Below are positions 16,980 to 54,156 of a stretch of DNA of 64,000 bases, piece by piece. The notes under the pieces are model-generated. The model had not been told where the DNA came from, made no database searches, and saw nothing but the letters and a program-made list of their open reading frames with translations. The position numbers were made by a program, and so were the translations under genes. Location of the stretch: contig JAAZBV010000156.1 in NCBI GenBank assembly GCA_012513605.1, forward strand, positions 91,270 to 155,269, written 5' to 3'. Positions within the stretch are counted from its first letter, which is position 1; every line of letters starts with the position of its first letter. Source of the stretch: Desulfatiglans sp. (GTDB taxonomy: Bacteria; Desulfobacterota; DSM-4660; Desulfatiglandales; HGW-15).

Positions 16980-18320
16980 ATGAAGATTAAGATAGCTCTG
17001 GTATCAATTGTTTTTGTCATGATTTTGAGCATGCCTTATGGTCAGGTAGGCGCCTCGGATTACAACAGCAACTGGCCCACATGGAGGGGCCCCCTGTTTA
17101 CCGGCGAGGTGGTAAAAGGTAACCCTCCTACAATCTGGAGCGAGACAAAGAATATCAAATGGAAAATACCCTTACCAGGAAAGGGCCTATCCACTCCGAT
17201 AGTATGGGGAGATCAGATATTCCTGACCTCTGCCATACCTCTTGATAAAAAGGCGTCTGAAGAAACCCTTGCAAAACTTAAGGAGGGGCAGGCATCTTGG
17301 ATGCAGCCCAAACTGCCCGAATATCTCCAGCAGTTTGTGGTCTATTCCATTGATAAAAACACCGGGAAAACTCTCTGGCAAAAGGTTGTACGCGAGCAGT
17401 TTCCCCATGAAGGCACCCATAATGATGGTAGCTGGGCCTCACAATCATGTGTGACTGATGGGGAATATCTTGTTGCATCATTTGGTTCTTTTGGAATTTA
17501 CTGTTTTGATCTCAAAGGTAATCTGAAATGGGAGAAGGACATTGGAGATCTGAATATCCGGGCCTCTTTCGGGGAAGGTAGTTCTCCTGCCCTGTATAAT
17601 GATTATCTGATCGTAAACTGGGATCATGAAAAGGATTCCTATATATATGTCCTTAATAAGAAAGATGGCGAGGTTATATGGAAAAAGAAGAGGGATGAGA
17701 AGACCTCATGGTCTACACCCATCGTTGTCCCGGTAAAGGGAAAGCTTCAGCTGATTGTAAGCGCCACTGGAAAATCAACCGCCTATGACCTGCAAAATGG
17801 AGATATCATTTGGGTAATATCAGGTATGACCGAAAATGTGATCCCATCACCTGTTACTGACGGTGAACTTGTTCACCTGATTAGCGGTTTCAGGGGCGCT
17901 GCAATGCAGACAATCAGGCTGGATGAGGCAAGCGGGGATCTGAAAGAGTCATCCGCATTAGTCTGGACATATAACAAAAATACCCCGTATGTCCCTTCAG
18001 CGCTTCTCTACAATGGCAGGCTCTATTATCTGCGCGGAAATGATGAAAGGCTGAGCTGTGTAGATGCTAAAACCGGAAAGATATTTTATGAGGCTGTTAA
18101 GCTTGATGGAATGAAAGGTGTGTATGCTTCACCCATTGGTGTTAACGGCCTTGTTTATGTGCTGGGCAGGAATGGAATGTGTTATGTTATAAAGGATGGA
18201 GAAGAGTTGAATGTTGTTTCCAGAAACCAGCTTGATGACAATTTTGATGCCAGCCCTGTTGTTGTTGGGAATCAATTGTTTTTGAGGGGTTTGAAGGCTC
18301 TTTACTGTATTTCGGAGTGA
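16980..18320 (+). CDS. secreted PQQ-like (BamB-like) beta-propeller repeat protein
   Basis: 446 aa with a signal peptide. The NWPTWRGP segment after the signal is typical of this family, followed by repeated W/G blade motifs. Confidence 0.75.
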   Translation: MKIKIALVSIVFVMILSMPYGQVGASDYNSNWPTWRGPLFTGEVVKGNPPTIWSETKNIKWKIPLPGKGLSTPIVWGDQIFLTSAIPLDKKASEETLAKLKEGQASWMQPKLPEYLQQFVVYSIDKNTGKTLWQKVVREQFPHEGTHNDGSWASQSCVTDGEYLVASFGSFGIYCFDLKGNLKWEKDIGDLNIRASFGEGSSPALYNDYLIVNWDHEKDSYIYVLNKKDGEVIWKKKRDEKTSWSTPIVVPVKGKLQLIVSATGKSTAYDLQNGDIIWVISGMTENVIPSPVTDGELVHLISGFRGAAMQTIRLDEASGDLKESSALVWTYNKNTPYVPSALLYNGRLYYLRGNDERLSCVDAKTGKIFYEAVKLDGMKGVYASPIGVNGLVYVLGRNGMCYVIKDGEELNVVSRNQLDDNFDASPVVVGNQLFLRGLKALYCISE

Positions 18321-18329
18321 TTTTTAAAT

Positions 18330-18555
18330 TGGCATGGCGCATAGAGCATAGCGCATGGAGTAAGTATAAAAAATTGGTTTTGATATTGCCCTATGCTCTT
18401 TGCCCCCTATGCGCTATGTTTTCCTGTATGTTGTAGGGGTAACCCCCTGCCTGCCCCTACACTTATTTCCAGAATCATTCAATTCGCCCTGCGCCTTGAG
18501 CCATTCCTCTCTTTCTAACCCTCGAACCCTGGAATCCTTGACCCCTTGAACCCTT
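18330..18555. repeat. mosaic of short dispersed low-complexity repeats
   Basis: gcgcatagagcatagcgcat pairs with ctatgctct..ctatgcgc as an inverted pair. A tgtagggg...cccctaca hairpin follows. The cgccctgcgccttgagcc / ctcgaaccctggaatccttgaccccttgaaccc motifs are related to 14061-14096, 27955-27970 and 59319-59345. Confidence 0.7.
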
Positions 18556-19816
18556 ACTTTAAAACCACACACTTCATCTGCTTCTGATCCCTGATCAAAA
18601 GCTTCCCGTCACTTAATGCCAAAGGCGCCCATGCCTGTTTTGTGTCAAGCAGTTCTGCCTTTGCCTGCACCCTGAATTCATCAGGAGTTGGCTCAATAAG
18701 ATAGAGCATCTTTTCACCATCACTGCTTAAAATAATGTCATCAGCTAGAATGAATCCGCCCTTGTCAAAATTAGGGTCTTTCCCTGTCTTCCATTTGATG
18801 TTGCCCTTAAGGTCCATACACATGAAGCCATTTCTCACCTGATTATTTGTGCCTTGGCTATAAAGATGCCCTTTGTAAAATATAGCGGGGTGCACATGGG
18901 AAGCGAACTCCTTTGAAAACATCACCTCATTTACTTCCCATGAATTCTCCTTCTTATTTAACTGTATAAGCGCCCCTCCAGATAGATACCCTCCTGTGAT
19001 AAACAGGCTGTTATCGCCCGTCTCTGTTACATTAGGCACAGGGGTCTTGCATTTCCAGCCATCATAAGACCATAAAAGCTTGCCTGTATCAGGGTTAAAC
19101 CCCATGACAGCCCCGGTGCCCCCACCTTCAGGCCTGGTGGCTGATATCATCACCAGATGATCTTCATTATCCATTTTGACCACCTTTGGTGAGACATATC
19201 CGGGGCTCCCTGGAAGGACCGGTGTCTTCCAGATAATCTCTCCATTTATCTTGTCATATGCCACAATGCCGACCACCTCTGTCTGAGGGGCAATAATCAC
19301 CATGTTTTTATAAACAAGGGGGTTCTGGGCAATCGCCCACATGGGGATGTCTGTTTTACTGAAATCTGTCCAGAAGTTCTTTTTCCATAAAGGTTTACGG
19401 GTGTCTTTATCAACACAGAGGAAATTGCCGAATGCATCACTTACATAAATTCTGCTACCATCTATTGTTGGTACTGTCCTTGAACCGTCATAGCTGACTG
19501 ACCATTTTGCCTCACTGCTGAATTGCCATTCTTCTTTTCCGGTAATAAGGTCAAAACAGCGTAAAACATTCTCTCTGTCATCAACCCTGTCATATATGTA
19601 GACCTTACCTTTACTAACAGCAGGCCCTCCGAAACCCTCACCGAGTGGAACTGTCCATAAAATCTTTGCCCCCCCTGCGGGCCATTGCCTTAAAAGCCCC
19701 TTTTCATCAGATACTGCATCCCGGTCAGGTCCAAGGTACTGTGGCCAGTCAGATGCCTGGGTTTTGCAGATATTAAAAAGGAAAAGAATAATAAGAATCA
19801 TTTCTGTAATCTTCAT
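18554..19816 (-). CDS. secreted PQQ-like (BamB-like) beta-propeller repeat protein
   Basis: The ORF track gives 18554..19849. ATG 19816 (MKITEMILIILF...) has an AGGAAGG RBS and starts a signal peptide. It has the DWPQYLGP segment and repeated blades. Confidence 0.75.
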   Translation of the reverse strand: MKITEMILIILFLFNICKTQASDWPQYLGPDRDAVSDEKGLLRQWPAGGAKILWTVPLGEGFGGPAVSKGKVYIYDRVDDRENVLRCFDLITGKEEWQFSSEAKWSVSYDGSRTVPTIDGSRIYVSDAFGNFLCVDKDTRKPLWKKNFWTDFSKTDIPMWAIAQNPLVYKNMVIIAPQTEVVGIVAYDKINGEIIWKTPVLPGSPGYVSPKVVKMDNEDHLVMISATRPEGGGTGAVMGFNPDTGKLLWSYDGWKCKTPVPNVTETGDNSLFITGGYLSGGALIQLNKKENSWEVNEVMFSKEFASHVHPAIFYKGHLYSQGTNNQVRNGFMCMDLKGNIKWKTGKDPNFDKGGFILADDIILSSDGEKMLYLIEPTPDEFRVQAKAELLDTKQAWAPLALSDGKLLIRDQKQMKCVVLK

Positions 19817-20237
19817 ATCAATACCTTCCTGAATATAGAGATTGTACATAGTCTGATCTGATATAAATTTTTTAAAAAGTCAATAGTTCTTAAATGTAAT
19901 AAAAAGTGCAATTATAAGGTGTATTTTTATAGACAAATTAACTGGAAAATATGAAAAAGAATACGATAAAAGAAGTAGTTAGAGAGTGTCAAGAATTTAT
20001 TTTTTACAAAAAACAAGTGGTGTCTGTTGTCAGGTTTATTAAGTAAATATTAAATAAAATTAATATAATCAGTATATTGAAGAGTATTTGCATTTTAATT
20101 GTAATAACCTTTAACTAGAATAGCCCTTTAAAAATCCATGTGCATTATTTTCTAAAAAAAATTATTGTAAGACTGGTATAAGAAATGCAAATGGTCAGGT
20201 TCAGCAGGAAAATACTAAAATAACAGGAGCGAAGAAT

Positions 20238-20891
20238 ATGTTTTTTCTATTTCAGTACAGTAAAGCGGGTCTTCCAGGTGGTTTAATCAACCTTCATCAG
20301 TCACTTCTTGAAAGTATAACCTCATATTTTGAAAAAGGTGAATCAGTTAAAACAAGGGTAAGGGAGATTAGAAAGTCACTCAGAGATGCAATAACTTTTG
20401 CAAAGAAAAAGAGAATATATCCCAGCAGCAAGACAAACCGGGCAGCTGAACTTATGGAAGAGATGTATGAAGAGCTTGAACTGACCCATAAGATACTTAA
20501 AGAGGCAGCCATTGAAATGGAAAACATGATTAACAAGATAAAGGAAGAAAGGGTTATTAATGTCCACTCGATTATTACCGAGGCCCAGGAATATTTTAAG
20601 ATAAAAGAGGTTGATGCCGGGATACAGCTCCTTGAAAAGGCACAGAAGGAACTAAAAGAAAAACTGCTTGTGAAAACAAGAAAGAAGGTTTTCGCAGGTT
20701 ATAACAGTGAGCTAAAAAAATTAAAACATGAATTTGCTCAAAGGGAATGGACAGAAAGAAAGAATAAGAGCTCTAAATTTTTCAGCTTGTGCATACCCTA
20801 TGAAAATTACTCTACCTATAAACTTATCAGGAATATAATCGACGGCTTTACACGTTTAAAGAGCTCATTTGCATTTGACAGGGCAGAATAG
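20238..20891 (+). CDS. hypothetical coiled-coil protein
   Basis: 217 aa, Lys/Glu-rich with heptad-like stretches. AGGAGCGAAG lies upstream. No family recognised. Confidence 0.5.
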   Translation: MFFLFQYSKAGLPGGLINLHQSLLESITSYFEKGESVKTRVREIRKSLRDAITFAKKKRIYPSSKTNRAAELMEEMYEELELTHKILKEAAIEMENMINKIKEERVINVHSIITEAQEYFKIKEVDAGIQLLEKAQKELKEKLLVKTRKKVFAGYNSELKKLKHEFAQREWTERKNKSSKFFSLCIPYENYSTYKLIRNIIDGFTRLKSSFAFDRAE

Positions 20892-21126: not shown

Positions 21127-22926
21127 TTATGCATCTTTATTCAATAATACCGCTCTTATTTTTTGTAATGCAGACAAGGAAAAGATAAGGGGATAAAGTT
21201 TTTCATGATACCATAGCCTTGCAAAATAAAGGCCTATAGGGCTTGAAGGCAGTTTGTCATGGTTATTAATCATTTCAAGCAATGCTTCTGATCCTTTTAA
21301 AAGTGCCTTTTGAACTGGCGCGGCTAAATTATCAAAGAAACCATGAAGAGCCGCACAGCCTGCAATGGCATCAAGGGCAAGGGAGGTCTCCTCAATTGTG
21401 GCAGGCGCATTCTTATCTCCTCCCCATGTGCCATTTTCTTTTTGTGCCTCAATCAGCCATTTAAGTCCGCTCTTAAGCGATTCTTTCATGGTTGAAAGTT
21501 CAGTGGATTTCATACGGGTTAAATGAGAAATTACCTTTGCTGTCCCATAAACAGGGTTCTTCATATCGTGAACATCTTCGTTACCAAACCACAAAGGTAC
21601 CCATGAACCATCAGGCCGCTGAGCATTTCGTAAAAACAGGAAACCCTTTTCCATGGCAGAGTTAATACTATTTTGCAGTTCAGGCCTCATATCAGGCATC
21701 CATGCGGAACATGCTGCAAGTGCATGGGCGGTAAGGTCTGTAGCGCTTTTATCAAAGGGTAATTTACCCCAGCCTTTGCAGAATGTGGGTATGCCTCCAT
21801 CACGGTTCTGCAGATTAATAAGCCAGAGGATGGCCGCCTCAACCGCATCAAGGGGCTTTTCGCCATCCGGGTCAAGATTCTTTATGGCCATAAGGGCTCC
21901 TGAAGTATCATCCGCATCAGGCACGCCCCCTGGGAGATCAGTCCATGCCCAGCCTCCGGGGTCTGCCCCGGTATACGGGTGAATCTCCCTGTGCTGCTGG
22001 CCTATAAGCCATGTAAAAATGAGGTTTTGCTGAGTTTTACTTATATTATCATTCTTTAACGCCTGTACAGCCATTGTGGAAACCCAGGTTGATAGATTTG
22101 TATCTATCGGCCAGCTTCCGTCTGTTCGCTGGCTGTGAAGCAAAAAATTAACCCCTTTTTTTGTAACAATGTGTTCCCTGTGTCCGCAGTTTGCAAGGCT
22201 CATCAGAACAAAGCTTGTCAAAGGAGTGGCCTCCAGAAAACCTCCATTTTCAGGCTGGATTTTTGTCAGGACTTTAAGGGATTTTGTACGTGCCAGTTTA
22301 CGGGCTATCTTTTGAACCGGGTTAACAGGGGGATGATGATGAAATACGACCTGCCCGATTGCGATAAGGGCGGGAAGGGCGTAGCTTACAACCGGCAGCT
22401 TAAGCCATTTGAACCACTGCTGGGGCAGGACAGCCAGTTCAAATGGGAGACCCTTAACATGTTTCCAGCCCTCCTTACCCAGTCTGCCCGCAAGGGCACA
22501 CATGGTGAGAATAGGGCATGAAAATGTCCTGTCAGCTCCATAGGCCGTTAAGATTGATCCGGCAATCTTTTCCGGATCAATAGAACCTGCGATACCTTTT
22601 ATATATTTTTCACAGGCATCAAGGGCCTCCTGATCCGGTGAGGTAACTGTCATGGCGCAGTAAACAAGAAGGGTAGTGCTGAGGTTGCTCTTGCTTATTG
22701 CTGTATCGCCCCATCCACCATCAGGACTCTGATTTTTTATGAGCCAGTTTATGCCGGAGTTAATAGATGAAGCATGTTGATTTTCATCCACAGAAGCCAG
22801 CGCAAAAACAGCAGTTGCAGTGGAAAGGGCACTGCTGCTTAACTCACCGGTCCAGTAACCTTTGTCATTAGTTTCCGTGTGTAGCATCTGCTGCAATCTG
22901 TTAATAGTAGATTCAATCTCTTTCAT
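21127..22926 (-). CDS. squalene-hopene-cyclase-like class II terpene cyclase
   Basis: 599 aa with the N-terminal GYWTGEL. QW-type repeats are QSPDGGWG, QRTDGSWP, QNRDGGIP, QRPDGSWV and QKENGTWG. The protonation motif GGWAWTDLPGGVPDADDTS (D-A-D-D is encoded at 21907-21918) parallels the SHC DxDDTA motif. Confidence 0.8.
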   Translation of the reverse strand: MKEIESTINRLQQMLHTETNDKGYWTGELSSSALSTATAVFALASVDENQHASSINSGINWLIKNQSPDGGWGDTAISKSNLSTTLLVYCAMTVTSPDQEALDACEKYIKGIAGSIDPEKIAGSILTAYGADRTFSCPILTMCALAGRLGKEGWKHVKGLPFELAVLPQQWFKWLKLPVVSYALPALIAIGQVVFHHHPPVNPVQKIARKLARTKSLKVLTKIQPENGGFLEATPLTSFVLMSLANCGHREHIVTKKGVNFLLHSQRTDGSWPIDTNLSTWVSTMAVQALKNDNISKTQQNLIFTWLIGQQHREIHPYTGADPGGWAWTDLPGGVPDADDTSGALMAIKNLDPDGEKPLDAVEAAILWLINLQNRDGGIPTFCKGWGKLPFDKSATDLTAHALAACSAWMPDMRPELQNSINSAMEKGFLFLRNAQRPDGSWVPLWFGNEDVHDMKNPVYGTAKVISHLTRMKSTELSTMKESLKSGLKWLIEAQKENGTWGGDKNAPATIEETSLALDAIAGCAALHGFFDNLAAPVQKALLKGSEALLEMINNHDKLPSSPIGLYFARLWYHEKLYPLIFSLSALQKIRAVLLNKDA

Positions 22927-23828
22927 GGAATCTCCGCAAGATAGCCAAGGGCGAGGAGCCCGTAATAGGTGTACTCACAGTCAATAACAGGGTCTGCCCA
23001 TGTCCCGCTGAAGCCGCCCTCTGGGTTCCAGAGCGTGTCAAGAAACTCAAGGTGGCCCTCCCTAATGATCTTATTTTCAGGGAAGTAGGAAATGGCCTGA
23101 AGGGCAGTGGCAGTGCTTAAGAGATCAGGCAGATTCATTGGGCTGTCACTCTTAAAGGCGCAGAAGCCCCCCCTCTCACTTGCCCTGCCCATAAGCCATT
23201 CAGCCCCCCTTTCAGGTAAAGGCCTCCCAAGCATATGATATGAGCATATGGCCGCGGCTGTTGAGGGGGTGGTTGATATGCCCCCTGCCTGTTCATTGGC
23301 AAAGCCGCCGTCATCCATTTCAAGTTTATCAAGGCAGTTTAAAATTGCATCAGGGTCAGGAGGCGCAACACCCATATCCTCGCACATGGTAAGGGCCATA
23401 AAACAGCCATAGGCATTACCATGCGCATCTGACTGATTAGCGCTGAAACTGCCATCCGCACATCTGAGTTCTACAAGCCTTTGGGTAAGCCCCTCCTTTA
23501 GACCGGAATCAATAGTAAAGGATGATATGTCAGCCAGATTTGTATATGAGCGGGCAAGGCATGAAAGATGAACCAGGTCAAGCCCATGCCCGCTCTCAAA
23601 GCCAGCCAGATATCTTTTTATAAGATCAACAGGGAGGGAGAGCTCAAGGCTGATGGCCAGTTCAATGCCAAATACGGTATAGTAAAGGTCGCTCTTATTA
23701 TCGCGGCCCATGAATCCGCCATCGTGGTCCAGATGCCTCAATACAAAACCGCTGACAAGCCCTGTGGATTTATCCAGCAGCAGAGGCGCCCTGCCCAGGG
23801 CCTGTATCATCTCCTGTCTGAGTGTCAT
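22923..23828 (-). CDS. prenyltransferase/squalene-oxidase-repeat protein (single alpha/alpha toroid)
   Basis: 301 aa with five evenly spaced repeats: HDGGFMG, ADGSFSA, DDGGFAN, ERGGFCA and PEGGFSG. These resemble prenyltransferase beta subunits. ATGA overlap with the downstream cyclase gene. Confidence 0.7.
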   Translation of the reverse strand: MTLRQEMIQALGRAPLLLDKSTGLVSGFVLRHLDHDGGFMGRDNKSDLYYTVFGIELAISLELSLPVDLIKRYLAGFESGHGLDLVHLSCLARSYTNLADISSFTIDSGLKEGLTQRLVELRCADGSFSANQSDAHGNAYGCFMALTMCEDMGVAPPDPDAILNCLDKLEMDDGGFANEQAGGISTTPSTAAAICSYHMLGRPLPERGAEWLMGRASERGGFCAFKSDSPMNLPDLLSTATALQAISYFPENKIIREGHLEFLDTLWNPEGGFSGTWADPVIDCEYTYYGLLALGYLAEIP

Positions 23829-25479
23829 TGCAGCATCCCATTAAATCAAAGTCGCCAAATATCTTGCTGATCACGCGGCGCAAAAGCCCCTTAAGTGCAG
23901 GGTTATTAAGCTGCGCCAGGCTCTCAATTGCCCTTGCCTTTGTGCTATCCATCAATGCCCGCGCACATTGATCAATATTAAGATCGCTGAAGATCTCCAT
24001 GATATGATCAAACTCTCTCTCCCTTACGCCTGGCTCCTGCCATGCCCTTAAGAGCAGTTGACGCGCCTCCTCTTTTGCCTGTTCTGTTGCAAGGGCCATG
24101 AGTATGCTAGGGTTGTCAAGCAGGCGGCGCCTCTTTTCATGGGGGAGAAGGTAATCCTCCAGGTCATCCCTGATCTGGTAGGCTACACCCATTGCCTCGC
24201 TGTATTGATGAAGGCAGGCCAGCACAGAACTGTCCGCCCCTGCAAGGAGCGCCCCAAGGGAGAGCGCAACATCAAAGGCAGGGGATGTCTTTCTCCTGAA
24301 TATCTCGATCACCTGATTGGATGTGAGAGATTCAGGATGCCTTGACCAGTAGAGCTCCTCACCCTGCCCAAGGCACATGATGCGATGCGCATGGGCAGCA
24401 CATTCAATCAGAGAGGCCTTCACCTGCGCAGCCACATCCAACTCTGAGAGGAGCTGATATCCCCAGCCAATAAGTAGATCCCCTGCATTAAGCGCAACAG
24501 GGATGCCATATCTTGCATGAAGGGTCTCCTGCCCGTATCGAATATCATCATTATCCTCTATATCATCATGGATAAGAGATGCCTTGTGAAAGCATTCCAC
24601 TGCGACACATATACGCCTGATATTATTGTCGGAGATGTTATTGCCCGGTGTCAGGGCTGTAAATGTGCATGACGCAAGAAAGGGACGCCATCTTTTCCCT
24701 GACAGGGCAATCCAATCCATTGCAATGGCCTCTGTCTGCGTGCCTTCGGGCCTGATAACCTCATCAAGCTCCTCCTTTGAAAACCAGGAATCAACACGGT
24801 TTCTCTCCTCTTCAAGGTTCAGCCGCGGGATTGAGGGGTTTTCAGATGTTTCATACAATGCCTCCCATAGCCAGTCTGTATCAATAGCTGTGTTTTCACA
24901 CCCGTCATAGAGCAGGGGGATAGCTATACCGGGTACAGCGCCTGCCTCCATGTATGGAAAGACCCTTTCAAGTGTGGAGAGGCAGCTTACACCCAGAATT
25001 GCCTCAATCTGGCGTGTCTCTATCAGGCTCATTACAACCGGCGAACCCTCTGCAATGAGCACCGCATACCCCAGCTCCTCTGCCTGCCTTTTAAGGTCAT
25101 TTATTATGCATGATCCGCAGTGGGCGCAGATGAGCCCGATCTCATCCATAATGCCCCTGCACTTTTCCGCTGAACGCAGACACTTTGGTACCAACAGCAG
25201 GCGCCTGTTATAGGGGATGGCAGTAAAGATATCATGCCACAGGGTATTATTGATGAGCACAGCTACAAAACCCCTGAACCTTGCGGGCCATTTATACTGG
25301 TTCAGTAATATTTCTGCATGTCTCTCAAGTTCAGCAATACCAAGAGGCGCACAGAGAGAGTTTGACTCAGCATAATCCCTGACTATCCGGCGCAGCTCTT
25401 CCCTTTCCCTAAGGGTGCAGGGGATATCCGCCTGGGGCGGACGGGCATTATATATCAATGCAAGGTTAAGGTCGCTCAT
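23770..25479 (-). CDS. DUF116-like Cys-rich domain fused to a trans-polyprenyl diphosphate synthase
   Basis: 569 aa. The N-terminal half has LLLVPKCLRSAEKCRG...GLICAHCGSC...LIAEGSPVV...ILGVSCLSTL, a DUF116-like pattern recalled from memory. The C-terminal half has GKRWRP, first Asp-rich motif LIHDDIEDNDDIRYG (DDIED at 24553-24567), and second motif QIRDDLEDY. Confidence 0.75.
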   Translation of the reverse strand: MSDLNLALIYNARPPQADIPCTLREREELRRIVRDYAESNSLCAPLGIAELERHAEILLNQYKWPARFRGFVAVLINNTLWHDIFTAIPYNRRLLLVPKCLRSAEKCRGIMDEIGLICAHCGSCIINDLKRQAEELGYAVLIAEGSPVVMSLIETRQIEAILGVSCLSTLERVFPYMEAGAVPGIAIPLLYDGCENTAIDTDWLWEALYETSENPSIPRLNLEEERNRVDSWFSKEELDEVIRPEGTQTEAIAMDWIALSGKRWRPFLASCTFTALTPGNNISDNNIRRICVAVECFHKASLIHDDIEDNDDIRYGQETLHARYGIPVALNAGDLLIGWGYQLLSELDVAAQVKASLIECAAHAHRIMCLGQGEELYWSRHPESLTSNQVIEIFRRKTSPAFDVALSLGALLAGADSSVLACLHQYSEAMGVAYQIRDDLEDYLLPHEKRRRLLDNPSILMALATEQAKEEARQLLLRAWQEPGVREREFDHIMEIFSDLNIDQCARALMDSTKARAIESLAQLNNPALKGLLRRVISKIFGDFDLMGCCNDTQTGDDTGPGQGASAAG

Positions 25480-27047
25480 CTCTTTTTCTCCGTTGCGCTG
25501 TACGCGGAAATCGTTGCTGACCCTGATAATCTCTTTGACATGCCCCGAAAGGTCATGCGCCAGTTAAAGATCTCTGCCCTGCCCATCACCTGCATTATCA
25601 TACGTTTAAGCCAGGGCACACCTCCTGCCTGCTGGTTGTCCCACATGAGTTTGGGGACACGTTTAAAATTGATCTCATAACAGGTGCGATAGAGTTCAAA
25701 ATGGCTCATGCTCATACTCGAAACAGAAAAACCGCCACCTGCCCTGATATCCTTTTCAAGCACAGGCTCATAGAATACAGGGAAGACAACAAGCTCCTGA
25801 GAGGAGAGCTCTTTAATGAGACTGAGGGTATCTATCACATCCTTAGGCTCCTCACCGGGCAGGCCCAGGACAATGCTGATTACCGGGAAGAACCCGGAGC
25901 GGGTCATCCTGCCTACTGCCTCCCTTATAATGTCAGGCCAGTCTTCAGATGAAAATGGCGCAATCTTACCGGGGCTGTTGGCAGCAACAAGCCTTCCATT
26001 GGCGCTTTCAGCCCCCATGTTTACCCATAGGTATTTTGCCGGTTTTTCCCAGGTCAATAGCCGCCGGATCTCCACAAGCTCCTTTTCCTCAAGATCAATA
26101 ACGCTTGTGATATTGGCGTGATCTATCTGCATGAATGATAGCCCTTTAAGCCCTCTCATCTGTTCAAGGAGGGATGCAAGCCTTTTAAAATCAGGCCTTG
26201 TTGTGGATGAGCCATACCTGAAAAAATCTTCGCTCCCGCTCACCACATTTTTTATTCCATTGGAAAGGTTTGTCTCGAGGTCTGCCATGATCATATCAGG
26301 GGAAAGGTGTTTCATCCCCTTCTGGGCCATGCTGCAAAACCTGCATCCCCTTCCGCATCCCCTTGAAAGCTCAATAATACCCATCATTGAGGGGCCACAA
26401 ATGGGCTGAACGCGCTCGATGCCAATCCCATTTACAGCAACATAATTATCTACATGCCTGCCCGCTAAAATGTCAGCAATAAGCTCAGGGCCAGATTCTT
26501 CGAAATAGCCCTCATATACCACATCAATGCCAAGACGGGCCGCTTCATCCGGGCTGGTTATAAATTGCCATGCGCCTGCCCCTCCGAACACCACCTTGAA
26601 GGGGTATTTTTTTTTGGCAGCCTTGAGCATGAGGAGCGTCTCTCTTGTCCATCTCCTGGTATAGAGTTCCCCTCCCCAGAAGCTGCTTGTGGTGGTATTG
26701 CTCATGCCATGACCAAGAGGGTCGCTGGAGCTGAAGAGCACAAGCTTTACCCATGGCCCAATAAGGTCAAAAAGCCGCTCAGGTGTGGTGCAGACTATAT
26801 CATCAGGAGAGAGACCTGATGCGGCCCTCATGCATGATTCAATGCGGCGCAGCCCCAGGGGAGCAACAGAGGCCCTGCCATTTTCATCAGTATGCACCTT
26901 TGGGCTTAGAAAATATCTCATAAGGGGTTCAGGCACCTTGCTTGTCTGCATGGTTGCAAAGATGCCCTCAAACAATACTGGGTAATTGGCGCTTAGTGTG
27001 CGGTCAGCCACCAGTATAACGGCAGGTCTTAAGAAGTTATTTTTCAT
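25476..27047 (-). CDS. radical SAM protein with N-terminal B12-binding-like domain (class-B-like)
   Basis: The track ORF runs to 27119. ATG 27047 (MKNNFLRPAVILVADR...) has a GGAGATCAGG RBS. The N-terminal VILVADR...APLGL layout resembles B12-domain rSAMs. The Fe-S triad is CGRGCRFC (26334-26357). Confidence 0.75.
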   Translation of the reverse strand: MKNNFLRPAVILVADRTLSANYPVLFEGIFATMQTSKVPEPLMRYFLSPKVHTDENGRASVAPLGLRRIESCMRAASGLSPDDIVCTTPERLFDLIGPWVKLVLFSSSDPLGHGMSNTTTSSFWGGELYTRRWTRETLLMLKAAKKKYPFKVVFGGAGAWQFITSPDEAARLGIDVVYEGYFEESGPELIADILAGRHVDNYVAVNGIGIERVQPICGPSMMGIIELSRGCGRGCRFCSMAQKGMKHLSPDMIMADLETNLSNGIKNVVSGSEDFFRYGSSTTRPDFKRLASLLEQMRGLKGLSFMQIDHANITSVIDLEEKELVEIRRLLTWEKPAKYLWVNMGAESANGRLVAANSPGKIAPFSSEDWPDIIREAVGRMTRSGFFPVISIVLGLPGEEPKDVIDTLSLIKELSSQELVVFPVFYEPVLEKDIRAGGGFSVSSMSMSHFELYRTCYEINFKRVPKLMWDNQQAGGVPWLKRMIMQVMGRAEIFNWRMTFRGMSKRLSGSATISAYSATEKKR

Positions 27048-27936
27048 CCTGATCTCCGGCCTTAAAGGCCCTTTTTTGTATCCGGGACAGGTCTGATGGT
27101 GAGAGTCCTTCCAGCACACTCATCGGGATATCAAGCCTTTTGTGAAGCGCCTCCAGCATATTAACCGGCTTGCGCGGCTCAGCGGAAAAGAGCCCGCCCT
27201 GCCTGCCGCGGTTTCTCAGCATGGAGTGGATGTCTGTTCCATTCAGAAGATCCAGCCTTACAGGAGGTGCCTGGATTTTTGATTCATCTATTTCGTCACC
27301 ATTAAATGGTGGCTGATTCAGTTTAGGAAATATAATGGCCCTGCCAGGGCATATACGGGCGCATGCGGCACAGTTGTTTTTACAGTTGTCAGGGTGGGAA
27401 ACCCTGATATTGGCCTCTTCATCAATGGTGTAGACACCAAAAAGACAGAAATTAAAACAGAGTTTACATTTCTGGCAGCGGCCCCGATCAATTACCGGGA
27501 ACCATGGCTCCTGTAAACCGCTGAATGCTATCTTCTCAGGAGTGCCTCCTGAACCTCCTGTTACCTCACTTGTGACCCTTGACATGATCTCTTCAGGAGG
27601 CATGACCCGCGGGTTGAGGATTATGATTTGACTGCCGGGTGAAGACTCTGCCTCTGCCATGCTGAACAGGGCCTGTATGGCCCTCTCATAACAGGCAATA
27701 ACAATAAGTTTACTGTATTGCACCCACGCCTTTAACAGCGGGTCATTATGCGAGACAAGCCCGCACAGGTCATCAACAATAACCGCATCATGGCCATGTT
27801 GTTCAAGACTTTTAAGCAGCATATCACGGGATTCATCAGAGACCAAATCCCTGTGGGTACATTTGCAGTAAACTATCATATTATTTTCAGCCATATAACT
27901 TCCAAAAATATTAAGCTGTTTTTTTGTCTGTTTCAT
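27037..27936 (-). CDS. 4Fe-4S dicluster domain protein (ferredoxin-like)
   Basis: 299 aa with Cys motifs CQKCKLCFNFC and CKNNCAACARICP and an extra Cys-containing N-terminal domain. An alternative start MAENN at 27894 has GGAAG upstream. The stop overlaps the rSAM start by 11 nt. Confidence 0.7.
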   Translation of the reverse strand: MKQTKKQLNIFGSYMAENNMIVYCKCTHRDLVSDESRDMLLKSLEQHGHDAVIVDDLCGLVSHNDPLLKAWVQYSKLIVIACYERAIQALFSMAEAESSPGSQIIILNPRVMPPEEIMSRVTSEVTGGSGGTPEKIAFSGLQEPWFPVIDRGRCQKCKLCFNFCLFGVYTIDEEANIRVSHPDNCKNNCAACARICPGRAIIFPKLNQPPFNGDEIDESKIQAPPVRLDLLNGTDIHSMLRNRGRQGGLFSAEPRKPVNMLEALHKRLDIPMSVLEGLSPSDLSRIQKRAFKAGDQDEK

Positions 27937-28421
27937 AAAATAATTAAGACATTACCTTGAGCCTTGCGCCATTAATTATCTAAATATTCAATGTGGAAAC
28001 ACAACTGATGCGCAGCATGTAATGCTCAAATATAAACATGATATATTTTAATGCATTATATAGCCAATTAAAGGATAGTCAATCTATGTTGATGCCTATC
28101 CCTTGAATCCTGTTTATTCCCATATCCTTTCTCTCACTATTAGACTTTTGACTCTCTTTCTTTCTCTCCTCTTTTCCCCCCTTGCTTTTTTAAATAGTTC
28201 ATCTTAAACCCAGCTTTTTTATTAGTTTGGGTGCAATGTATTATTGTATCTTTTCAATCTCGGGGAGTTAACTTATAATTGTTTATGGTTCATGCATTTG
28301 TGTATTAAAAAGATGAAAACGGGTATGATGTATACCTTCACCGCCCGGAAGAGCCATGCCGGAAATTTTTTGGGGCTCCAAAGGCCAAGGCTAATGATGA
28401 TTAAATATAAGGAGAACTATT

Positions 28422-30518
28422 ATGGCGACACCAGGGTTTGGAGGAAAGTTACTCTTAGTTAATCTTACCAATAAACAGATAACTGCACTGGACACAGAAA
28501 AATATGAGCAGTTCGGCGGCGGGCATGGAATGGCCACTGCACTTTTCTGGGATTATTGTGTGGCGCCCGGAGACTGGGATCTGCAGGATGCCTTTCACCC
28601 GAAAAACATGGTTGCCCTTGTAACCGGCCCGGTAAGCGGGACAGGAGTGCCGTGGGCAGCAAGGACAAGTGTTTCAGGGTTGTCACCGCAGTGTTATCCC
28701 ATACAGTGGTTCGGTCATAGCAATTTCGGCGGCATGTTCGGGGCCTTTATGAAAATGGCCGGCTGGGATGGTGTTGCGGTCATTGGCAGGGCAGAATCCC
28801 CTGTCTATATCAATGTGGTAGATGACAGGGTCACCATTGAAGATGCTAAAGAGCTCTGGGGTTTAACCACATGGGAGTGCCAGGAGGAGATATGGAAGAG
28901 ATCCGGCATCAGGTATGGTAAGGAGTGGCAGGGGGTTGAAGAGAGGTATACACTACAGAGACCTGCTATAGTAACCATAGGCCCTGCTGGCGAAAACATG
29001 ACCAGGGTAGCATCACTTGTCCACGGAGGCGGAAGCGGTGCAGGGCAGGGAGGTTTCGGCGGGGTATTTGGCTCCAAAAATCTCAAGGCAATCGCCTTTC
29101 TTGGAACAAAGGGGATAAAGATAGCTGATCCAAAAGTATTGCTGGATGTAAGAGACTGGTATTACCAGAATTGGCCGGCAGGGGCACCCCCTTTTGCAGG
29201 GCAGGGTGTATCATCAGCGTGTATTGGCTGCGGACAGGTAAGAAAGTGTCATAACCGGGACAGGATTCATGGCAAGGATTCGGATGGTTGCGCTGAGGCA
29301 GGATGGTTCTACCTTACACCCCAGGATGCAAATGGGATGGACGATGCAACAAAGTTCAGGATAAACGCTAAAGGCACTGACATAGTCCAGCAGCTTGGTA
29401 TAAACGGCATGGAAACCTGTTTCATGGGCCCCCTGACATTTAAAACTGATCATAATCCCGATTTTCCAATTCAGCCGGAGGTGCCCGCCTATACGGCCCT
29501 TGGCTGGTACATGAAGAGGATGTATGACATGGGTGTTATAGGCCCAGGCACAAAATATGATACTGCCCCTCTGAATTTTAAAAAGTTTGCCACTCAGGAG
29601 TTCATGGAGATCTACGGCATTGCCCTGGCAAACCGTTATGGAATAGGTGACCTGTTGGCCGAGGGAACCGCGCGCATGGCGGATATACTTGGACGAAAGG
29701 ATGATTTTAATACACTTGCCAGACTTACCAACTGGGGTTATGTGGATCACTGGTCCATGCCCGGAGTAGACTGGGCCTATGGTAACCTGATGGATTCAAG
29801 GGACATCAACAGCCATGATATAGACCTGGCAAACCCTGCTGTAGGTCTGATGGGTTTTGGGGGCGGCGGCAACAGCAAATGGTCATGCGAGGAGTTTGTA
29901 AAGATCCATGCAGAGCGAACCACGCGCAACAACCCCTACTGGTTTGATTTCAGCTGGGAGGGTAAACAGGCACATGATACCGGTGTCTTTTCAAGGCACA
30001 AGGCGGAATTTGTCGCATGGCGCATGCATTACTGGACCTATTACAAGGAATCTGTCGGATTCTGTGACTGGGGTTATACAAAGCTCTTTGATGCAAACCA
30101 CCCGAAAGGCTATGGCTATACCCCTGAGGCTGAACCTCGCTGGCTAAACGCAATCACCGGAAGAAAACACACCTTTGAGGATGGGCTTGAAATGGGAAGA
30201 CGCGCCTGGAATCTGAAACGTGCAATCTTTGCCCTTCAGGGCAGGCACAGAAAGATGGAAAAATTTAACGGTTACATGTACAGACCCGGGGCGTCCTATT
30301 GCGGATTTTACAACACGAAGCCAATATACGATGGAAAAAACTGGGAATGGAAGGACTGCAAGGAGCTTTACCTGACTGAAGAGGGTGTGGAAAAGTGGAA
30401 GAGCTATTTCTATGAGATAGAAGGCTGGGACAAGGATTCGGGATATCCGAAGAGGAAAACCCTGGAAAAGCTTGGTCTGAAATATGCTGCTGATCTGCTT
30501 TCTAAAAAACTTGTTTAA
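28422..30518 (+). CDS. aldehyde:ferredoxin oxidoreductase (AOR) family tungsten/molybdopterin protein
   Basis: 698 aa with an AOR-type N-terminus GKLLLVNLTNKQI...FGGGHGMA and large C-terminal domains. Cys cluster CIGCGQVRKC. RBS AAGGAGAA. Confidence 0.7.
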   Translation: MATPGFGGKLLLVNLTNKQITALDTEKYEQFGGGHGMATALFWDYCVAPGDWDLQDAFHPKNMVALVTGPVSGTGVPWAARTSVSGLSPQCYPIQWFGHSNFGGMFGAFMKMAGWDGVAVIGRAESPVYINVVDDRVTIEDAKELWGLTTWECQEEIWKRSGIRYGKEWQGVEERYTLQRPAIVTIGPAGENMTRVASLVHGGGSGAGQGGFGGVFGSKNLKAIAFLGTKGIKIADPKVLLDVRDWYYQNWPAGAPPFAGQGVSSACIGCGQVRKCHNRDRIHGKDSDGCAEAGWFYLTPQDANGMDDATKFRINAKGTDIVQQLGINGMETCFMGPLTFKTDHNPDFPIQPEVPAYTALGWYMKRMYDMGVIGPGTKYDTAPLNFKKFATQEFMEIYGIALANRYGIGDLLAEGTARMADILGRKDDFNTLARLTNWGYVDHWSMPGVDWAYGNLMDSRDINSHDIDLANPAVGLMGFGGGGNSKWSCEEFVKIHAERTTRNNPYWFDFSWEGKQAHDTGVFSRHKAEFVAWRMHYWTYYKESVGFCDWGYTKLFDANHPKGYGYTPEAEPRWLNAITGRKHTFEDGLEMGRRAWNLKRAIFALQGRHRKMEKFNGYMYRPGASYCGFYNTKPIYDGKNWEWKDCKELYLTEEGVEKWKSYFYEIEGWDKDSGYPKRKTLEKLGLKYAADLLSKKLV

Positions 30519-50523: not shown

Positions 50524-50543
50524 ATTTTATTATTAATTAAAGA

Positions 50544-51314: not shown

Positions 51315-51342
51315 ATATCAACTCCTCTTAATAGTTAAAATA

Positions 51343-54153: not shown

Positions 54154-54156
54154 AAA

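What the first reader, a model, noticed from the sequence alone, without database searches (positions are those of the whole stretch)
21127..27936. Orphan five-gene isoprenoid cluster: ferredoxin-like, class-B-like radical SAM, DUF116::polyprenyl synthase, alpha/alpha-toroid protein, DxDD class II cyclase
Five co-directional genes have overlapping or abutting stops and starts: 27037/27047, ATGA at 25476-25479, 23770/23828, and ATGA at 22923-22926. This argues for a single translationally coupled operon.

The cluster combines five functions:
- a chain-building trans-prenyl synthase (DDIED at 24553-24567, plus DDLED);
- a squalene-hopene-cyclase-like protein with five QW-type repeats and the protonation motif DADDT (21907-21918);
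- a separate ~300-aa prenyltransferase-repeat toroid;
- a CxxxCxxC radical SAM with a B12-domain-like N-terminus;
- a 2x[4Fe-4S] protein that could supply electrons.

The genes that define known pathways are absent from the window. There is no squalene synthase or HpnCDE, no HpnH/HpnG-type hopanoid side-chain genes, and no YtpB-type curcumene synthase as in the Bacillus sporulene route.

My inference is that a polyprenyl substrate is made, transferred or cyclised, and modified by radical chemistry. That would be a candidate undescribed anaerobic cyclic-terpenoid lipid pathway.
Basis: partly seen in the sequence, partly recalled or inferred. Interest (0 to 1): 0.85.

Follow-up and report, generated by a model that had tools for sequence, protein, structure and literature searches.

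The report
Conserved squalene-independent cyclic-terpenoid gene cassette
Five tightly packed genes in a sulfate-reducer-type genome are one copy of a widespread but functionally uncharacterised bacterial cassette that probably builds a ring-containing isoprenoid lipid without squalene, using an iron-sulfur/radical enzyme set whose chemistry is unknown.

Summary
Five overlapping minus-strand genes (21127-27936) encode a 4-Cys/2x[4Fe-4S] ferredoxin-like protein, a radical SAM enzyme with a B12-type N-domain, a DUF116::trans-prenyl synthase fusion, a 301-aa alpha/alpha toroid and an SHC-like DxDD cyclase.

The cluster is not an isolated curiosity. The window matches a Desulfatiglans sp. MAG. Cyclase relatives occur in at least 597 species genomes, mainly PVC, Acidobacteriota, Bacteroidota and Desulfatiglandales.

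Of 60 loci with enough flank, 37 carry the fusion plus toroid beside the cyclase, and 35 of those 37 also carry a radical SAM gene. That gene comes in two mutually exclusive types: the ~520-aa B12-like type (as here, in the Desulfatiglans group and Phycisphaerae/Pirellulales MAGs, presumably anaerobic) and a ~397-aa SPASM/HpnH-like type.

The cyclase scores far below the hopene-cyclase cut-offs. It matches the published "SHC-like / unknown function" clade, whose substrate was still undetermined in 2025. The toroid looks like RabGGTase beta but lacks two of the three zinc ligands. The synthase signature is invariant (A-5, S-4, F-8) and suggests a C20-C25 product.

My best reading is a squalene-independent cyclic isoprenoid pathway with a radical tailoring or substrate-forming step. 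It is a real, functionally uncharacterised system whose existence was already flagged.

The parts
28055..28082 (-). Promoter-like site (TTGACT-16-TATAAT, 11 of 12 matches) about 120-160 nt upstream of the first gene.
   Evidence: This is a consensus match only. It is the best-scoring site in the 18-28.6 kb scan.
27037..27936 (-). Ferredoxin-like protein. The true start is probably 27894, giving 285 aa. The N-terminal domain (about 27562-27894) has four invariant Cys (CxC...DLCG...AC) and belongs to no known family. It is followed by a 2x[4Fe-4S] dicluster domain (about 27334-27498) and a C-terminal extension.
   Evidence: Fer4 families hit, but below their cut-offs; cysteine positions. N-domain alignment A4 has no Pfam or PDB match; start site.
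25476..27047 (-). Radical SAM enzyme, 523 aa. It has a Rossmann/B12-type N-domain, the cluster motif C231xxxC235xxC238, and long C-terminal helices. Outside the cluster motif only two other Cys are invariant (C86, C456), so no auxiliary cluster is evident.
   Evidence: PF04055; TIGR04013 B12/rSAM with E = 6e-20, below cut-off; invariant columns. AF2 model pLDDT 81; best folds are MgmA (9CCB), RimO/MiaB, AprD4 and TsrM, with TM about 0.5; about 800 relatives, most of the named ones from Phycisphaerae/Sedimentisphaerales.
23770..25479 (-). Fusion protein, 569 aa. The DUF116 domain (about 24859-25266) carries seven invariant Cys. The trans-prenyl diphosphate synthase domain (about 23998-24723) carries FARM DDIED (24553-24567) and SARM DDLED (24154-24168).
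   Evidence: PF01976 at 3e-31 and PF00348 at 2e-42; closest solved structures are GGPP/FPP synthases; 40 fusions show invariant ECFHKASLIHDDIED and invariant C100, C107, C118, C121, C124, C166 and C194.
22923..23828 (-). Single-domain alpha/alpha toroid, 301 aa. The fold is that of a prenyltransferase beta subunit, but without the zinc site. It is probably a prenyl-binding partner of the cyclase.
   Evidence: PF00432. AF2 pLDDT 94; best fold RabGGTase beta with TM 0.70 at 17% identity, followed by the single-domain class II cyclases MstE and 8PAK; positions aligned to the Zn ligands Cys240 and His290 are invariant Leu237 and Tyr286; invariant motifs SDLYYT, PDLLSTA and DCEYTYYG.
21127..22926 (-). 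SHC-like beta-gamma class II terpenoid cyclase, 599 aa. The acid motif is D337-A-D-D340 (21907-21918). A His partner (H401) and an invariant hydrophobic patch (residues 177-195) are also present.
   Evidence: SQHop_cyclase N and C domains; TIGR01507 scores 109 against a cut-off of 431; alignment to A. acidocaldarius SHC places D374/D376/D377 on D337/D339/D340, H451 on H401, W312 on W281 and F365 on W328; invariant columns; hydropathy.
18554..19849 (-). Secreted PQQ_2/BamB-like beta-propeller, a linked accessory. Its 62-66% identical orthologues lie directly upstream of the ferredoxin gene in L001 and L004. In the window it lies downstream of the cyclase.
   Evidence: present in 8 of 14 variant-A loci; signal-peptide-like N-terminus.
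16980..18320 (+). Second secreted PQQ_2 beta-propeller, a paralogue of the one above. Any link to the cassette is uncertain.
   Evidence: PF13360 at 3e-30; only 21-29% identical to the propellers in other loci.

Best explanation
The five genes are one copy of a conserved cassette that makes a cyclic isoprenoid, most likely a membrane lipid, from a head-to-tail prenyl chain rather than from squalene.

**Steps supported by sequence**
- The synthase half of the DUF116::IDS fusion has both Asp-rich motifs, so it elongates an all-trans prenyl diphosphate.
- The cyclase keeps the SHC protonation machinery (DxDD plus His), so it starts ring formation by protonating a C=C bond.
- The radical SAM enzyme has an intact CxxxCxxC site and a dedicated Fe-S protein encoded immediately upstream and overlapping it, so it can be reduced to cleave SAM.

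**Steps that are inferred**
- The chain is medium length, about C25 (range C20-C30). The pocket residues are invariant Ala(-5)/Ser(-4) with Phe at -8.
- The Zn-less toroid binds the prenyl chain and docks on the cyclase, rather than transferring prenyl groups to proteins.
- The radical SAM enzyme performs a radical step on unactivated carbon of the terpenoid. I favour tailoring of the ring system or side chain: C-methylation for the B12-like type, or C-C bond formation.
- The 7-Cys DUF116 domain and the 4-Cys/2x[4Fe-4S] protein form the electron path.
- The secreted beta-propeller acts on the envelope side.
For: **Co-conservation**
- The gene order Fd, rSAM, DUF116::IDS, toroid, cyclase recurs in a Desulfatiglandales MAG, Sedimentisphaerales and other Phycisphaerae, Pirellulales MAGs and the cultured Anaerobaca lacustris.
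- In the census of 60 loci, 37 have the fusion and toroid next to the cyclase, and 35 of those also have a radical SAM gene.
- The overlapping stops and starts are themselves conserved.

**Not a hopanoid locus**
- Cyclase scores are far below the SHC and OSC cut-offs.
- No squalene synthase or hpn genes lie in the window.
[quoted passage not shown] It also says the genomic context implies a precursor other than squalene (PMC12414744, PMC7306690).

**Catalytic competence**
- The DxDD, His and aromatic residues align with SHC.
- FARM and SARM are invariant.
- The radical SAM motif is invariant.

**Chain length**
- The best NCBIfam and PDB matches are FPP/GGPP-type synthases.
- The bulky -5 residue of the closest GGPP synthases (Tyr in 1WY0, Phe in 5JFQ) is Ala here, with an invariant Phe at -8.
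- By the established 'floor residue' rule for archaeal-type GGPP synthases (Ohnuma-type mutagenesis, my knowledge), this shifts the product by about one C5 unit.

**Toroid as partner**
- In every locus where the fusion was found, the toroid lies between it and the cyclase; in most it directly abuts the cyclase gene, but a gap of 1.4-2 kb separates them in L027, L065 and L073, about 2.5 kb in L083 and 5-7 kb in L029 and L084. In L012 an MFS gene sits between fusion and toroid.
- The Zn ligands are lost.
- PMC12414744 reports unusually dense substitutions on the SHC-type dimer surface at the stem of this clade. That is what a switch from homodimer to heteromer would produce.

**Radical SAM type**
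- The fold resembles the B12-dependent sp3-C methylase MgmA, TsrM and relatives.
Against: - No product is known for any member of the cassette. Substrate, chain length and the order of steps are all inference.
- Pfam's B12-binding model does not hit the N-domain, so cobalamin use is unproven.
- The two radical SAM types are mutually exclusive at the same cassette position. This argues for one shared reaction, yet the types have different cofactor logic: a B12-like domain in one and extra conserved Cys in the other. That fits C-C bond formation or substrate formation at least as well as methylation.
- There is no obvious enzyme to remove the diphosphate.
- Variant-B loci often add a CobW-type GTPase and a NifS-like desulfurase. 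That looks like metallocentre maturation rather than lipid tailoring.
- Ala/Ser at -5/-4 also occurs in type II/III GGPP synthases that stop at C20 (my knowledge), so C25 is not secure.
- 19 of the 60 loci have the cyclase alone within +-10 kb.
Confidence: 0.55

Rival explanations
1. The redox module acts before the cyclase. In this reading the radical SAM enzyme, the ferredoxin-like protein and the DUF116 Fe-S domain create the cyclase substrate from prenyl diphosphate. One route would be reductive removal of the diphosphate to give a hydrocarbon polyene. Another would be radical C-C coupling of two prenyl chains, an oxygen- and squalene-synthase-independent route to a long polyene. The SHC-like enzyme would then fold that product.
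For: - DUF116 is physically fused to the synthase in all 40 fusions examined, with seven invariant Cys.
- The cassette has no class I synthase or phosphatase to remove the diphosphate.
- The two mutually exclusive radical SAM types are one with a B12-like domain and one with extra conserved Cys. These parallel the two cofactor solutions described for C-C bond-forming lipid radical SAM enzymes: Grs with B12, and Tes with auxiliary clusters (PMC13459092).
- The radical SAM gene sits upstream of the synthase and overlaps it.
Against: - L012 keeps the ferredoxin, fusion, toroid and cyclase but has cleanly lost the radical SAM gene. L053 (Chthoniobacter flavus) has the fusion, toroid and cyclase with no radical SAM gene within 10 kb. 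This suggests the scaffold can be made without it.
- No known radical SAM enzyme couples allylic diphosphates.
- Gene order is weak evidence for reaction order.
Confidence: 0.2
2. The radical SAM enzyme and the Fe-S proteins are maturases, not lipid enzymes. With the CobW-type GTPase and NifS-like desulfurase of variant B, they would assemble an unusual metal centre in the DUF116 domain. This would resemble HydE/G/F or NifB systems. The terpenoid chemistry would then be done only by the IDS, toroid and cyclase.
For: - Variant-B loci repeatedly add a CobW/HypB-family GTPase (14 loci) and a class V aminotransferase resembling a cysteine desulfurase (16 loci).
- DUF116 has seven invariant Cys.
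- HydE appears among the weaker fold matches of the radical SAM core.
Against: - Variant A, the window's type, has neither the GTPase nor the desulfurase.
- The HydE matches cover only the common radical SAM core, with TM about 0.28.
- Two unrelated radical SAM architectures doing the same maturation step would be unusual.
Confidence: 0.1
3. This is an ordinary hopanoid cyclase, as NCBI annotates it ('squalene--hopene cyclase', NLD39580.1). It would use squalene made elsewhere in the genome, and the neighbouring genes would be unrelated or only loosely related.
For: - The public annotation calls it a squalene-hopene cyclase.
- The DxDD motif and the SHC N and C domains are present.
- The rest of the genome could not be inspected.
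Against: - TIGR01507 scores 109 bits against a cut-off of 431, and TIGR01787 scores 129 against 323.
- The best match to solved SHC has E = 1e-19, with several short partial alignments and one main stretch (query 209-505).
- The cyclase is tightly and widely co-inherited with a dedicated prenyl synthase and toroid.
- The published phylogeny separates this clade from SHC.
Confidence: 0.04
4. The cassette makes a low-abundance specialised metabolite, such as a meroterpenoid, an antibiotic or a signal, rather than a bulk membrane lipid. The toroid would act as a real transferase that attaches the prenyl or cyclised unit to a non-protein acceptor.
For: - The sister clade enzymes Lon15 and AtoE make secondary metabolites.
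- One locus (L012) carries an MFS exporter inside the cassette.
- A Bipolaricaulota preprint links a look-alike gene set to an antibacterial compound, although without genetic proof.
Against: - The cassette is very broadly distributed and keeps a constant architecture across the PVC group, Acidobacteriota, Bacteroidota and the Desulfatiglans group, with no variable tailoring genes. That pattern is typical of core lipid pathways, not of specialised metabolites.
- No acceptor-forming genes are conserved in the cassette.
Confidence: 0.1

Closest known systems
'SHC-like' / 'unknown function' clade of class II terpenoid cyclases (Santana-Molina et al. 2020, PMC7306690; Mol Biol Evol 2025, PMC12414744)
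   Same: - The taxa match: PVC group, Acidobacteriota and an FCB (Bacteroidota) member.
- The length falls in the 550-700 aa range used for that clade.
- The catalytic DxDD is conserved.
- The genomic context points away from squalene.
- No product is known.
   Different: - The window's copy comes from Desulfatiglans (Desulfobacterota), a group not listed for the clade.
- I did not place it in the published tree.
- The two radical SAM variants, the Zn-less toroid and the invariant IDS signature are not described in the accessible text of those papers.
Squalene-hopene cyclase and the hpn hopanoid locus (HpnCDE, HpnF, HpnH, HpnG, HpnP/R)
   Same: - Both have the beta-gamma fold, QW motifs and a DxDD/His acid.
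- In both, radical SAM enzymes are associated with a cyclic terpenoid. HpnH and HpnP/R are the precedents.
   Different: - The cyclase scores far below the family cut-offs.
- The window has no HpnCDE or Sqs, no HpnH equivalog and no HpnG.
- A dedicated head-to-tail prenyl synthase takes the place of squalene synthesis.
Epoxy-polyprenyl cyclase pathways (Lon15 for longestin, C40; AtoE for atolypenes, C25)
   Same: - This is the sister clade according to PMC12414744.
- The cyclase is paired with a dedicated head-to-tail prenyl diphosphate synthase.
   Different: - Those pathways use an O2-dependent epoxidase and an epoxide substrate.
- This cassette has no monooxygenase, keeps the alkene-protonating DxDD, and occurs in lineages I take to be strict anaerobes.
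Bacillus sporulene route (HepS/HepT, YtpB, SqhC)
   Same: A regular polyprenyl chain rather than squalene is cyclised by an SHC relative.
   Different: - The window has no YtpB-type synthase.
- The cyclase clade is different.
- The Bacillus route has no Fe-S or radical SAM module.
Protein prenyltransferase beta subunits (RabGGTase/GGTase-III beta) and single-domain class II cyclases (MstE)
   Same: These are the best fold matches to the 301-aa toroid, with TM up to 0.70. Profile matches reach E = 1e-6.
   Different: - The Zn ligands Cys and His are replaced by invariant Leu and Tyr.
- No alpha subunit is encoded.
- The position equivalent to DxDD reads D-L-L-S, so the toroid is neither a Zn transferase nor a standard protonating cyclase.
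Cobalamin-type (class B) radical SAM enzymes acting on lipids or sp3 carbon (HpnP/HpnR, GrsA/B, MgmA, TsrM)
   Same: The architecture is an N-terminal Rossmann-type domain followed by a radical SAM barrel. MgmA and TsrM are among the best structural matches. NCBI names the protein 'B12-binding domain-containing radical SAM protein'.
   Different: - Sequence similarity is marginal. TIGR04013 scores 71 bits against a cut-off of 251, and no HpnP or HpnR model hits.
- Pfam's B12-binding model is not detected.
- In sister cassettes the gene is replaced by an unrelated SPASM/HpnH-like radical SAM gene.

Membership tests
Squalene-hopene cyclase (TIGR01507 equivalog) | Whole-protein score above the curated cut-off (431 bits). 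| tested here: not met
   109 bits. The broader squalene/oxidosqualene cyclase model TIGR01787 gives 129 bits against 322.7.
Squalene-hopene cyclase (TIGR01507 equivalog) | DxDD general acid with its His partner, and QW repeats. | tested here: met
   D337/D339/D340 are invariant. H401 aligns with SHC H451. There are four strict QW motifs.
Squalene-hopene cyclase (TIGR01507 equivalog) | Uses squalene, with squalene synthesis genes (HpnCDE or Sqs) present. | tested here: not met
   none in the 64-kb window. The rest of the genome cannot be tested with these tools.
'SHC-like / unknown function' cyclase clade (PMC7306690, PMC12414744) | [quoted passage not shown] | not tested
   No joint tree with Lon15, AtoE or the reference SHCs could be built because those sequences were not retrievable. 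The assignment rests on the next row.
'SHC-like / unknown function' cyclase clade (PMC7306690, PMC12414744) | Taxon range, a length of 550-700 aa, conserved catalytic residues and a non-squalene genomic context. | tested here: met
   Relatives 45-53% identical occur in Gemmatales/Fimbriiglobus, Verrucomicrobiota, Acidobacteriota and Bacteroidota. Lengths are 580-645 aa. DxDD is invariant.
trans-Isoprenyl diphosphate synthase (PF00348) | First and second Asp-rich motifs (DDxxD) and a family score above the cut-off. | tested here: met
   145 bits against 27. DDIED and DDLED, invariant or nearly so in 40 homologues.
Long-chain (C35 or longer) polyprenyl diphosphate synthase | Closest to the hepta-, octa- or solanesyl synthase equivalogs. 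| tested here: not met
   Short-chain models score highest (IdsA 107, GGPP synthase 106, FPP synthase 105 bits). Long-chain models score lower (HepT 87, octaprenyl 67). All are below the equivalog cut-offs.
Protein prenyltransferase beta subunit | Zn site formed by Asp, Cys and His (RabGGTase beta D238/C240/H290; residue numbers from my knowledge). | tested here: not met
   The profile alignment places PDLLS on PDVCY and DCEYT on DPFHT. Cys becomes invariant Leu237 and His becomes invariant Tyr286.
Protein prenyltransferase beta subunit | Alpha/alpha-barrel fold. | tested here: met
   pLDDT 94, with TM 0.70 to 3C72_B.
Class B (cobalamin-dependent) radical SAM | N-terminal cobalamin-binding Rossmann domain plus a CxxxCxxC barrel. 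| tested here: inconclusive
   The fold resembles MgmA and TsrM and the CxxxCxxC motif is present. However, PF02310 is not detected, and AprD4 and the methylthiotransferases, which share the architecture without using B12, match equally well.
Methylthiotransferase (MiaB/RimO) | Three-Cys auxiliary cluster in the N-terminal domain and a TRAM domain. | tested here: not met
   only one invariant Cys (C86) lies N-terminal to the radical SAM motif; no TRAM hit.
HpnH adenosyl-hopene transferase (TIGR03470) | Score above the cut-off (225 bits). | tested here: not met
   the window's radical SAM enzyme gives no hit; the variant-B radical SAM enzyme scores 34-49 bits.

The most novel reading that the evidence does not exclude
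The cassette could be the long-sought biological source of cyclised regular polyprenoids in sediments and oils. These are the tricyclic terpanes (cheilanthanes) and higher 'tricyclopolyprenol'-type hydrocarbons. They would be made anaerobically, without squalene or O2, by sediment-dwelling groups: the Desulfatiglans group, Phycisphaerae/Sedimentisphaerales, Acidobacteriota and Verrucomicrobiota. A radical SAM step, B12-type or cluster-type depending on lineage, would add a methyl group or a C-C bond. That modification would give a diagnostic biomarker.
Probability: 0.12. Interest if true: 0.9.

Novelty: new variant of a known kind. Interest (0 to 1): 0.62.

Why it matters
Class II cyclase products such as hopanes and steranes are among the most durable molecular fossils, and several abundant fossil terpanes still have no known biological source. 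The cyclase in this cassette belongs to a large clade whose substrate specialists explicitly list as unknown (PMC12414744).

This work shows four things:
- The cyclase travels with a dedicated Fe-S-fused prenyl synthase, a Zn-less toroid and one of two alternative radical SAM enzymes.
- That gives a concrete gene set to express.
- It gives a predicted substrate class: a head-to-tail chain of about C20-C30.
- It identifies cultured carriers to test.

If the product is a membrane lipid, it would be a third major family of bacterial cyclic isoprenoid lipids, made without squalene. Its synthesis would also involve radical SAM chemistry on a terpenoid that has not been described.

Tried and rejected
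**Searches that found nothing useful**
- A sequence search of the toroid against the PDB gave no hit. Only a profile search and a fold search worked.
- A profile of the 4-Cys N-domain matched nothing significant in the PDB or Pfam. My guess that it resembles MvhD-like domains therefore stays unsupported.
- Literature searches for DUF116, tricyclohexaprenol/cheilanthane cyclases, the terms 'radical SAM + terpene cyclase + Planctomycetota', and lipids of Anaerobaca or Sedimentisphaera found no characterisation of the cassette.
- The supplement of PMC7306690 that shows the genomic context (Fig. S10) is not held.

**A lead I did not use as evidence**
- The Bipolaricaulota J31 preprint lists a look-alike gene set and a C50H68N8 compound. 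It gives no genetic link between the two.

**Ideas considered and rejected**
- The toroid as a zinc-dependent prenyltransferase: two of the three zinc ligands (Cys, His) are replaced.
- The radical SAM enzyme as a methylthiotransferase: it lacks the Cys for an auxiliary cluster.
- The ~1.4-kb gap seen in rSAM-less tblastn rows as an O2-dependent replacement enzyme: the gap holds a second type of radical SAM gene.

**Things I could not do**
- Read model coordinates to map the cavities.
- Run a multimer prediction.
- Fetch the Lon15, AtoE or Grs sequences for trees.
- Inspect the rest of the genome for squalene synthase.

**Caveat on the tree**
- The NJ tree of cyclases is star-like. I used it only to show that the radical SAM type largely tracks cyclase lineage.

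Full report
**1. What is in the sequence**

Five ORFs lie head to tail on the minus strand between 21127 and 27936. Reading the junctions directly gives:
- The ferredoxin-like gene's TAA (27037-27039) overlaps the radical SAM ATG (27045-27047) by 11 nt.
- The radical SAM and synthase genes share ATGA at 25476-25479.
- The synthase stop (23770) lies 59 nt inside the toroid gene (ATG at 23828).
- The toroid and cyclase genes share ATGA at 22923-22926.

Comparable synthase/toroid overlaps of 38-59 nt are called in distant homologous loci, so the overlap is not a start-codon artefact.

Two start sites need correcting:
- The radical SAM protein is 523 aa, starting at 27047.
- The ferredoxin-like protein most likely starts at 27894 (285 aa). 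Homologues align from residue 15, and the NCBI record is 285 aa.

A promoter-like site with 11 of 12 matches lies at 28055-28082; this is a consensus match only.

None of the five proteins has a clear transmembrane helix. The cyclase has an invariant hydrophobic patch at residues 177-195.

**2. Identity of the parts**

*Cyclase.*
- It has both SHC domains but scores 109 bits on the hopene-cyclase equivalog (cut-off 431) and 129 on the squalene/oxidosqualene cyclase model (cut-off 323).
- Against A. acidocaldarius SHC the acid triad and its partners align: D374/D376/D377 with D337/D339/D340, H451 with H401, and W312 with W281. These residues are invariant or nearly so in 24 family members.

*Synthase.*
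- It is a fusion of a DUF116 domain and a trans-IDS domain. The DUF116 half has seven Cys that are invariant in 40 homologues.
- The pocket region ECFHKASLIHDDIED is invariant across both cassette variants.
- Its closest solved relatives are GGPP and FPP synthases, which carry Tyr or Phe at position -5 where this protein has Ala. It has Phe at -8.
- From published mutagenesis on archaeal-type GGPP synthases (my knowledge), moving the bulky 'floor' from -5 to -8 adds about one C5 unit. I therefore infer about C25, with C20-C30 possible.

*Toroid.*
- It folds with high confidence (pLDDT 94) and best matches RabGGTase beta (TM 0.70), then single-domain class II cyclases.
- A profile alignment shows the Zn-ligand Cys and His replaced by invariant Leu237 and Tyr286.
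- The position equivalent to DxDD reads D-L-L-S.
- It is therefore neither a zinc prenyltransferase nor a standard protonating cyclase.

*Radical SAM enzyme.*
- The model has pLDDT 81. It shows a Rossmann-type N-domain plus the barrel.
- It resembles MgmA, TsrM, AprD4 and MiaB/RimO at TM about 0.5.
- It lacks the Cys needed for a methylthiotransferase auxiliary cluster.
- Pfam's B12-binding model does not hit it.

*Ferredoxin-like protein.*
- It has eight Cys for two [4Fe-4S] clusters.
- It also has an N-terminal domain with four invariant Cys that matches no Pfam family or solved structure.

**3. Source and distribution**

The radical SAM and toroid proteins hit 100% identical database entries, and the cyclase, fusion, ferredoxin-like and propeller proteins were found by exact look-up. 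All come from a Desulfatiglans sp. MAG on a 180-kb contig (NLD39578-NLD39584).

The best 80 are spread over:
- Planctomycetota, Verrucomicrobiota and Lentisphaerae;
- Acidobacteriota;
- Bacteroidota (Marinifilum);
- Hydrogenedentales and Sumerlaeota;
- Desulfatiglandales.

I searched these loci with the window's proteins and with proteins from sister loci. Of 60 non-redundant loci with at least 5.2 kb upstream:
- 14 have the window's full arrangement (variant A);
- 21 have a sister arrangement (variant B);
- 19 have the cyclase alone within +-10 kb, mostly Verrucomicrobiaceae;
- the rest are partial.

Thirty-five of the 37 loci with the fusion also have a radical SAM gene. No locus has both types.

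**4. Two variants**

In variant B the 520-aa radical SAM gene is replaced, at the same position, by an unrelated 397-aa radical SAM gene. This one has an HpnH-like N-terminus and five further conserved Cys.

In most variant-B loci the 4-Cys domain is a separate 128-aa protein. A CobW/HypB-type GTPase (14 loci) and a NifS-like protein (16 loci) are often added.

The two variants differ in host range:
- Variant A is found in Sedimentisphaerales, other Phycisphaerae, Pirellulales MAGs, Anaerobaca lacustris and the Desulfatiglans group. I take these to be anaerobes; no oxygen data were examined.
- Variant B is found in Acidobacteriota, Verrucomicrobiota, Planctomycetaceae, Gemmataceae, Lentisphaerae, Hydrogenedentales and Marinifilum.

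A rough NJ tree shows that the radical SAM type mostly follows cyclase lineage.

A secreted BamB-like beta-propeller gene sits directly upstream in 8 of 14 variant-A loci. In the window its 62-66% identical orthologue lies just downstream at 18554-19849.

**5. What is known**

Santana-Molina et al. 2020 defined divergent 'SHC-like' cyclases. They stated that the planctomycetal ones keep the catalytic residues. They also stated that the genomic context suggests a precursor other than squalene.

The 2025 Mol Biol Evol study makes several relevant points:
- It says neither function nor structure is known.
- It reports dense substitutions on the SHC-type dimer surface at the clade's stem.
- Its 14 expression tests were all of SHC- or OSC-clade enzymes.

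Makarova et al. 2015 had noted the DUF116-synthase fusion and predicted an electron-transfer role for DUF116.

A 2026 review of lipid-modifying radical SAM enzymes does not list this system.

I did not build a joint tree. Assignment to the clade therefore rests on matching taxa, length, motifs and context.

**6. Most likely mechanism**

*Shown by sequence:*
- a competent trans-prenyl synthase;
- a competent protonating class II cyclase;
- a competent radical SAM site with an adjacent Fe-S protein;
- no squalene or hopanoid genes in the 64-kb window.

*Inferred:*
- A head-to-tail chain of about C25 is cyclised from its terminal double bond into a polycyclic prenyl compound.
- The toroid binds the chain and pairs with the cyclase. 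This fits its constant presence beside the cyclase (directly abutting it in most loci), the lost zinc site and the altered dimer surface.
- The radical SAM enzyme, reduced through the 4-Cys/2x[4Fe-4S] protein, modifies unactivated carbon.

I give this overall reading 0.55.

The main rival (0.2) is that the redox module acts first and makes the cyclase substrate.
- In its favour: DUF116 is fused to the synthase, there is no diphosphate-removing enzyme, and the two alternative radical SAM architectures parallel the Grs (B12) and Tes (auxiliary cluster) solutions for C-C bond formation.
- Against it: L012 and L053 keep the synthase, toroid and cyclase without a radical SAM gene.

Other rivals:
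- a metallocentre-maturation role for the radical SAM enzyme (0.1);
- a specialised-metabolite reading (0.1);
- a plain hopanoid reading (0.04).

**7. Verdict**

The finding is real and well observed, and its central inference survives. Four qualifications apply:
- The cassette is common rather than orphan.
- It is not restricted to anaerobes.
- It was already flagged in the literature as a known unknown.
- Several part assignments need refinement: the Zn-less toroid, the short or medium chain length, the extra 4-Cys domain, and the linked beta-propeller.

What is added here:
- the two-variant architecture with mutually exclusive radical SAM enzymes;
- the invariant chain-length signature;
- the loss of the toroid's zinc site;
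- a list of cultured carriers for experiments.

Noticed in passing
window 22000-30000: GC content is 0.48-0.51 here, against 0.38-0.44 in the 10 kb on either side. The terpenoid operon and the divergent AFOR gene therefore sit in a GC-richer patch. This may mean horizontal acquisition. The nearest non-Desulfatiglans relatives are Planctomycetota, at about 50% identity.
   Followed up: partly
window 28422-30518 (+): An aldehyde:ferredoxin oxidoreductase family gene (AFOR_N/AFOR_C) is transcribed divergently from the operon and shares its intergenic region. It is not found next to the cassette in any other locus examined.
   Followed up: partly
window 49069-61271 (-): A block that looks like NRPS accessory genes. 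It holds two stand-alone condensation-domain proteins (one with a TubC_N docking domain), a type II thioesterase, an O-methyltransferase with an extra C-terminal region, and an Opp-type ABC peptide transporter. No adenylation domain was seen among the ORFs scanned.
   Followed up: no
window 741-1808 (-) and 13404-14051 (+): Two further radical SAM genes that appear unrelated to the cassette. One is lysine-2,3-aminomutase-like (LAM_C domain). The other is a small 215-aa radical SAM protein that resembles QueE by my own recollection.
   Followed up: no
window 20238-20891 (+): A 217-aa Lys/Glu-rich ORF with no Pfam match sits on the opposite strand between the cyclase and the beta-propeller gene. 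It has no counterpart in the other loci.
   Followed up: partly
L052:3498-4709, L069:12049-13206 and 14-16 other variant-B loci: A CobW/HypB-type GTPase and a NifS/IscS-like class V aminotransferase recur beside the variant-B cassette but never beside variant A. This hints at dedicated metal or sulfur delivery.
   Followed up: partly
L010:9512-9934, L053:9562-9975 and six other loci, at least six of them Verrucomicrobiota: A small protein of about 140 aa with a YDDQCPxC motif lies directly upstream of the cyclase in eight loci, mostly ones where the rest of the cassette is absent within 10 kb, although L053, L084 and L023 keep parts of it. It resembles DCC/DUF393 thiol-disulfide oxidoreductases, by my own recollection.
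   Followed up: no
L012:7654-9084: In this Pirellulales MAG the radical SAM gene is missing from the cassette. An MFS_3 transporter gene is inserted between the synthase fusion and the toroid.
   Followed up: partly
Preprint 10.1101/2025.11.21.689855, Fig. S12: A cultured Bipolaricaulota strain has, side by side, a separate DUF116 protein, IspH, an 'SHC', a hypothetical protein, an 'adenosyl-hopene transferase' (a radical SAM enzyme) and a polyprenyl synthetase. This looks like an unfused relative of variant B in another phylum.
   Followed up: no
window 21127-22926; NCBI NLD39580.1: The public record names the cyclase 'squalene--hopene cyclase', yet it scores a quarter of the family cut-off. 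This is probably an over-annotation, and it may be repeated across the clade.
   Followed up: yes
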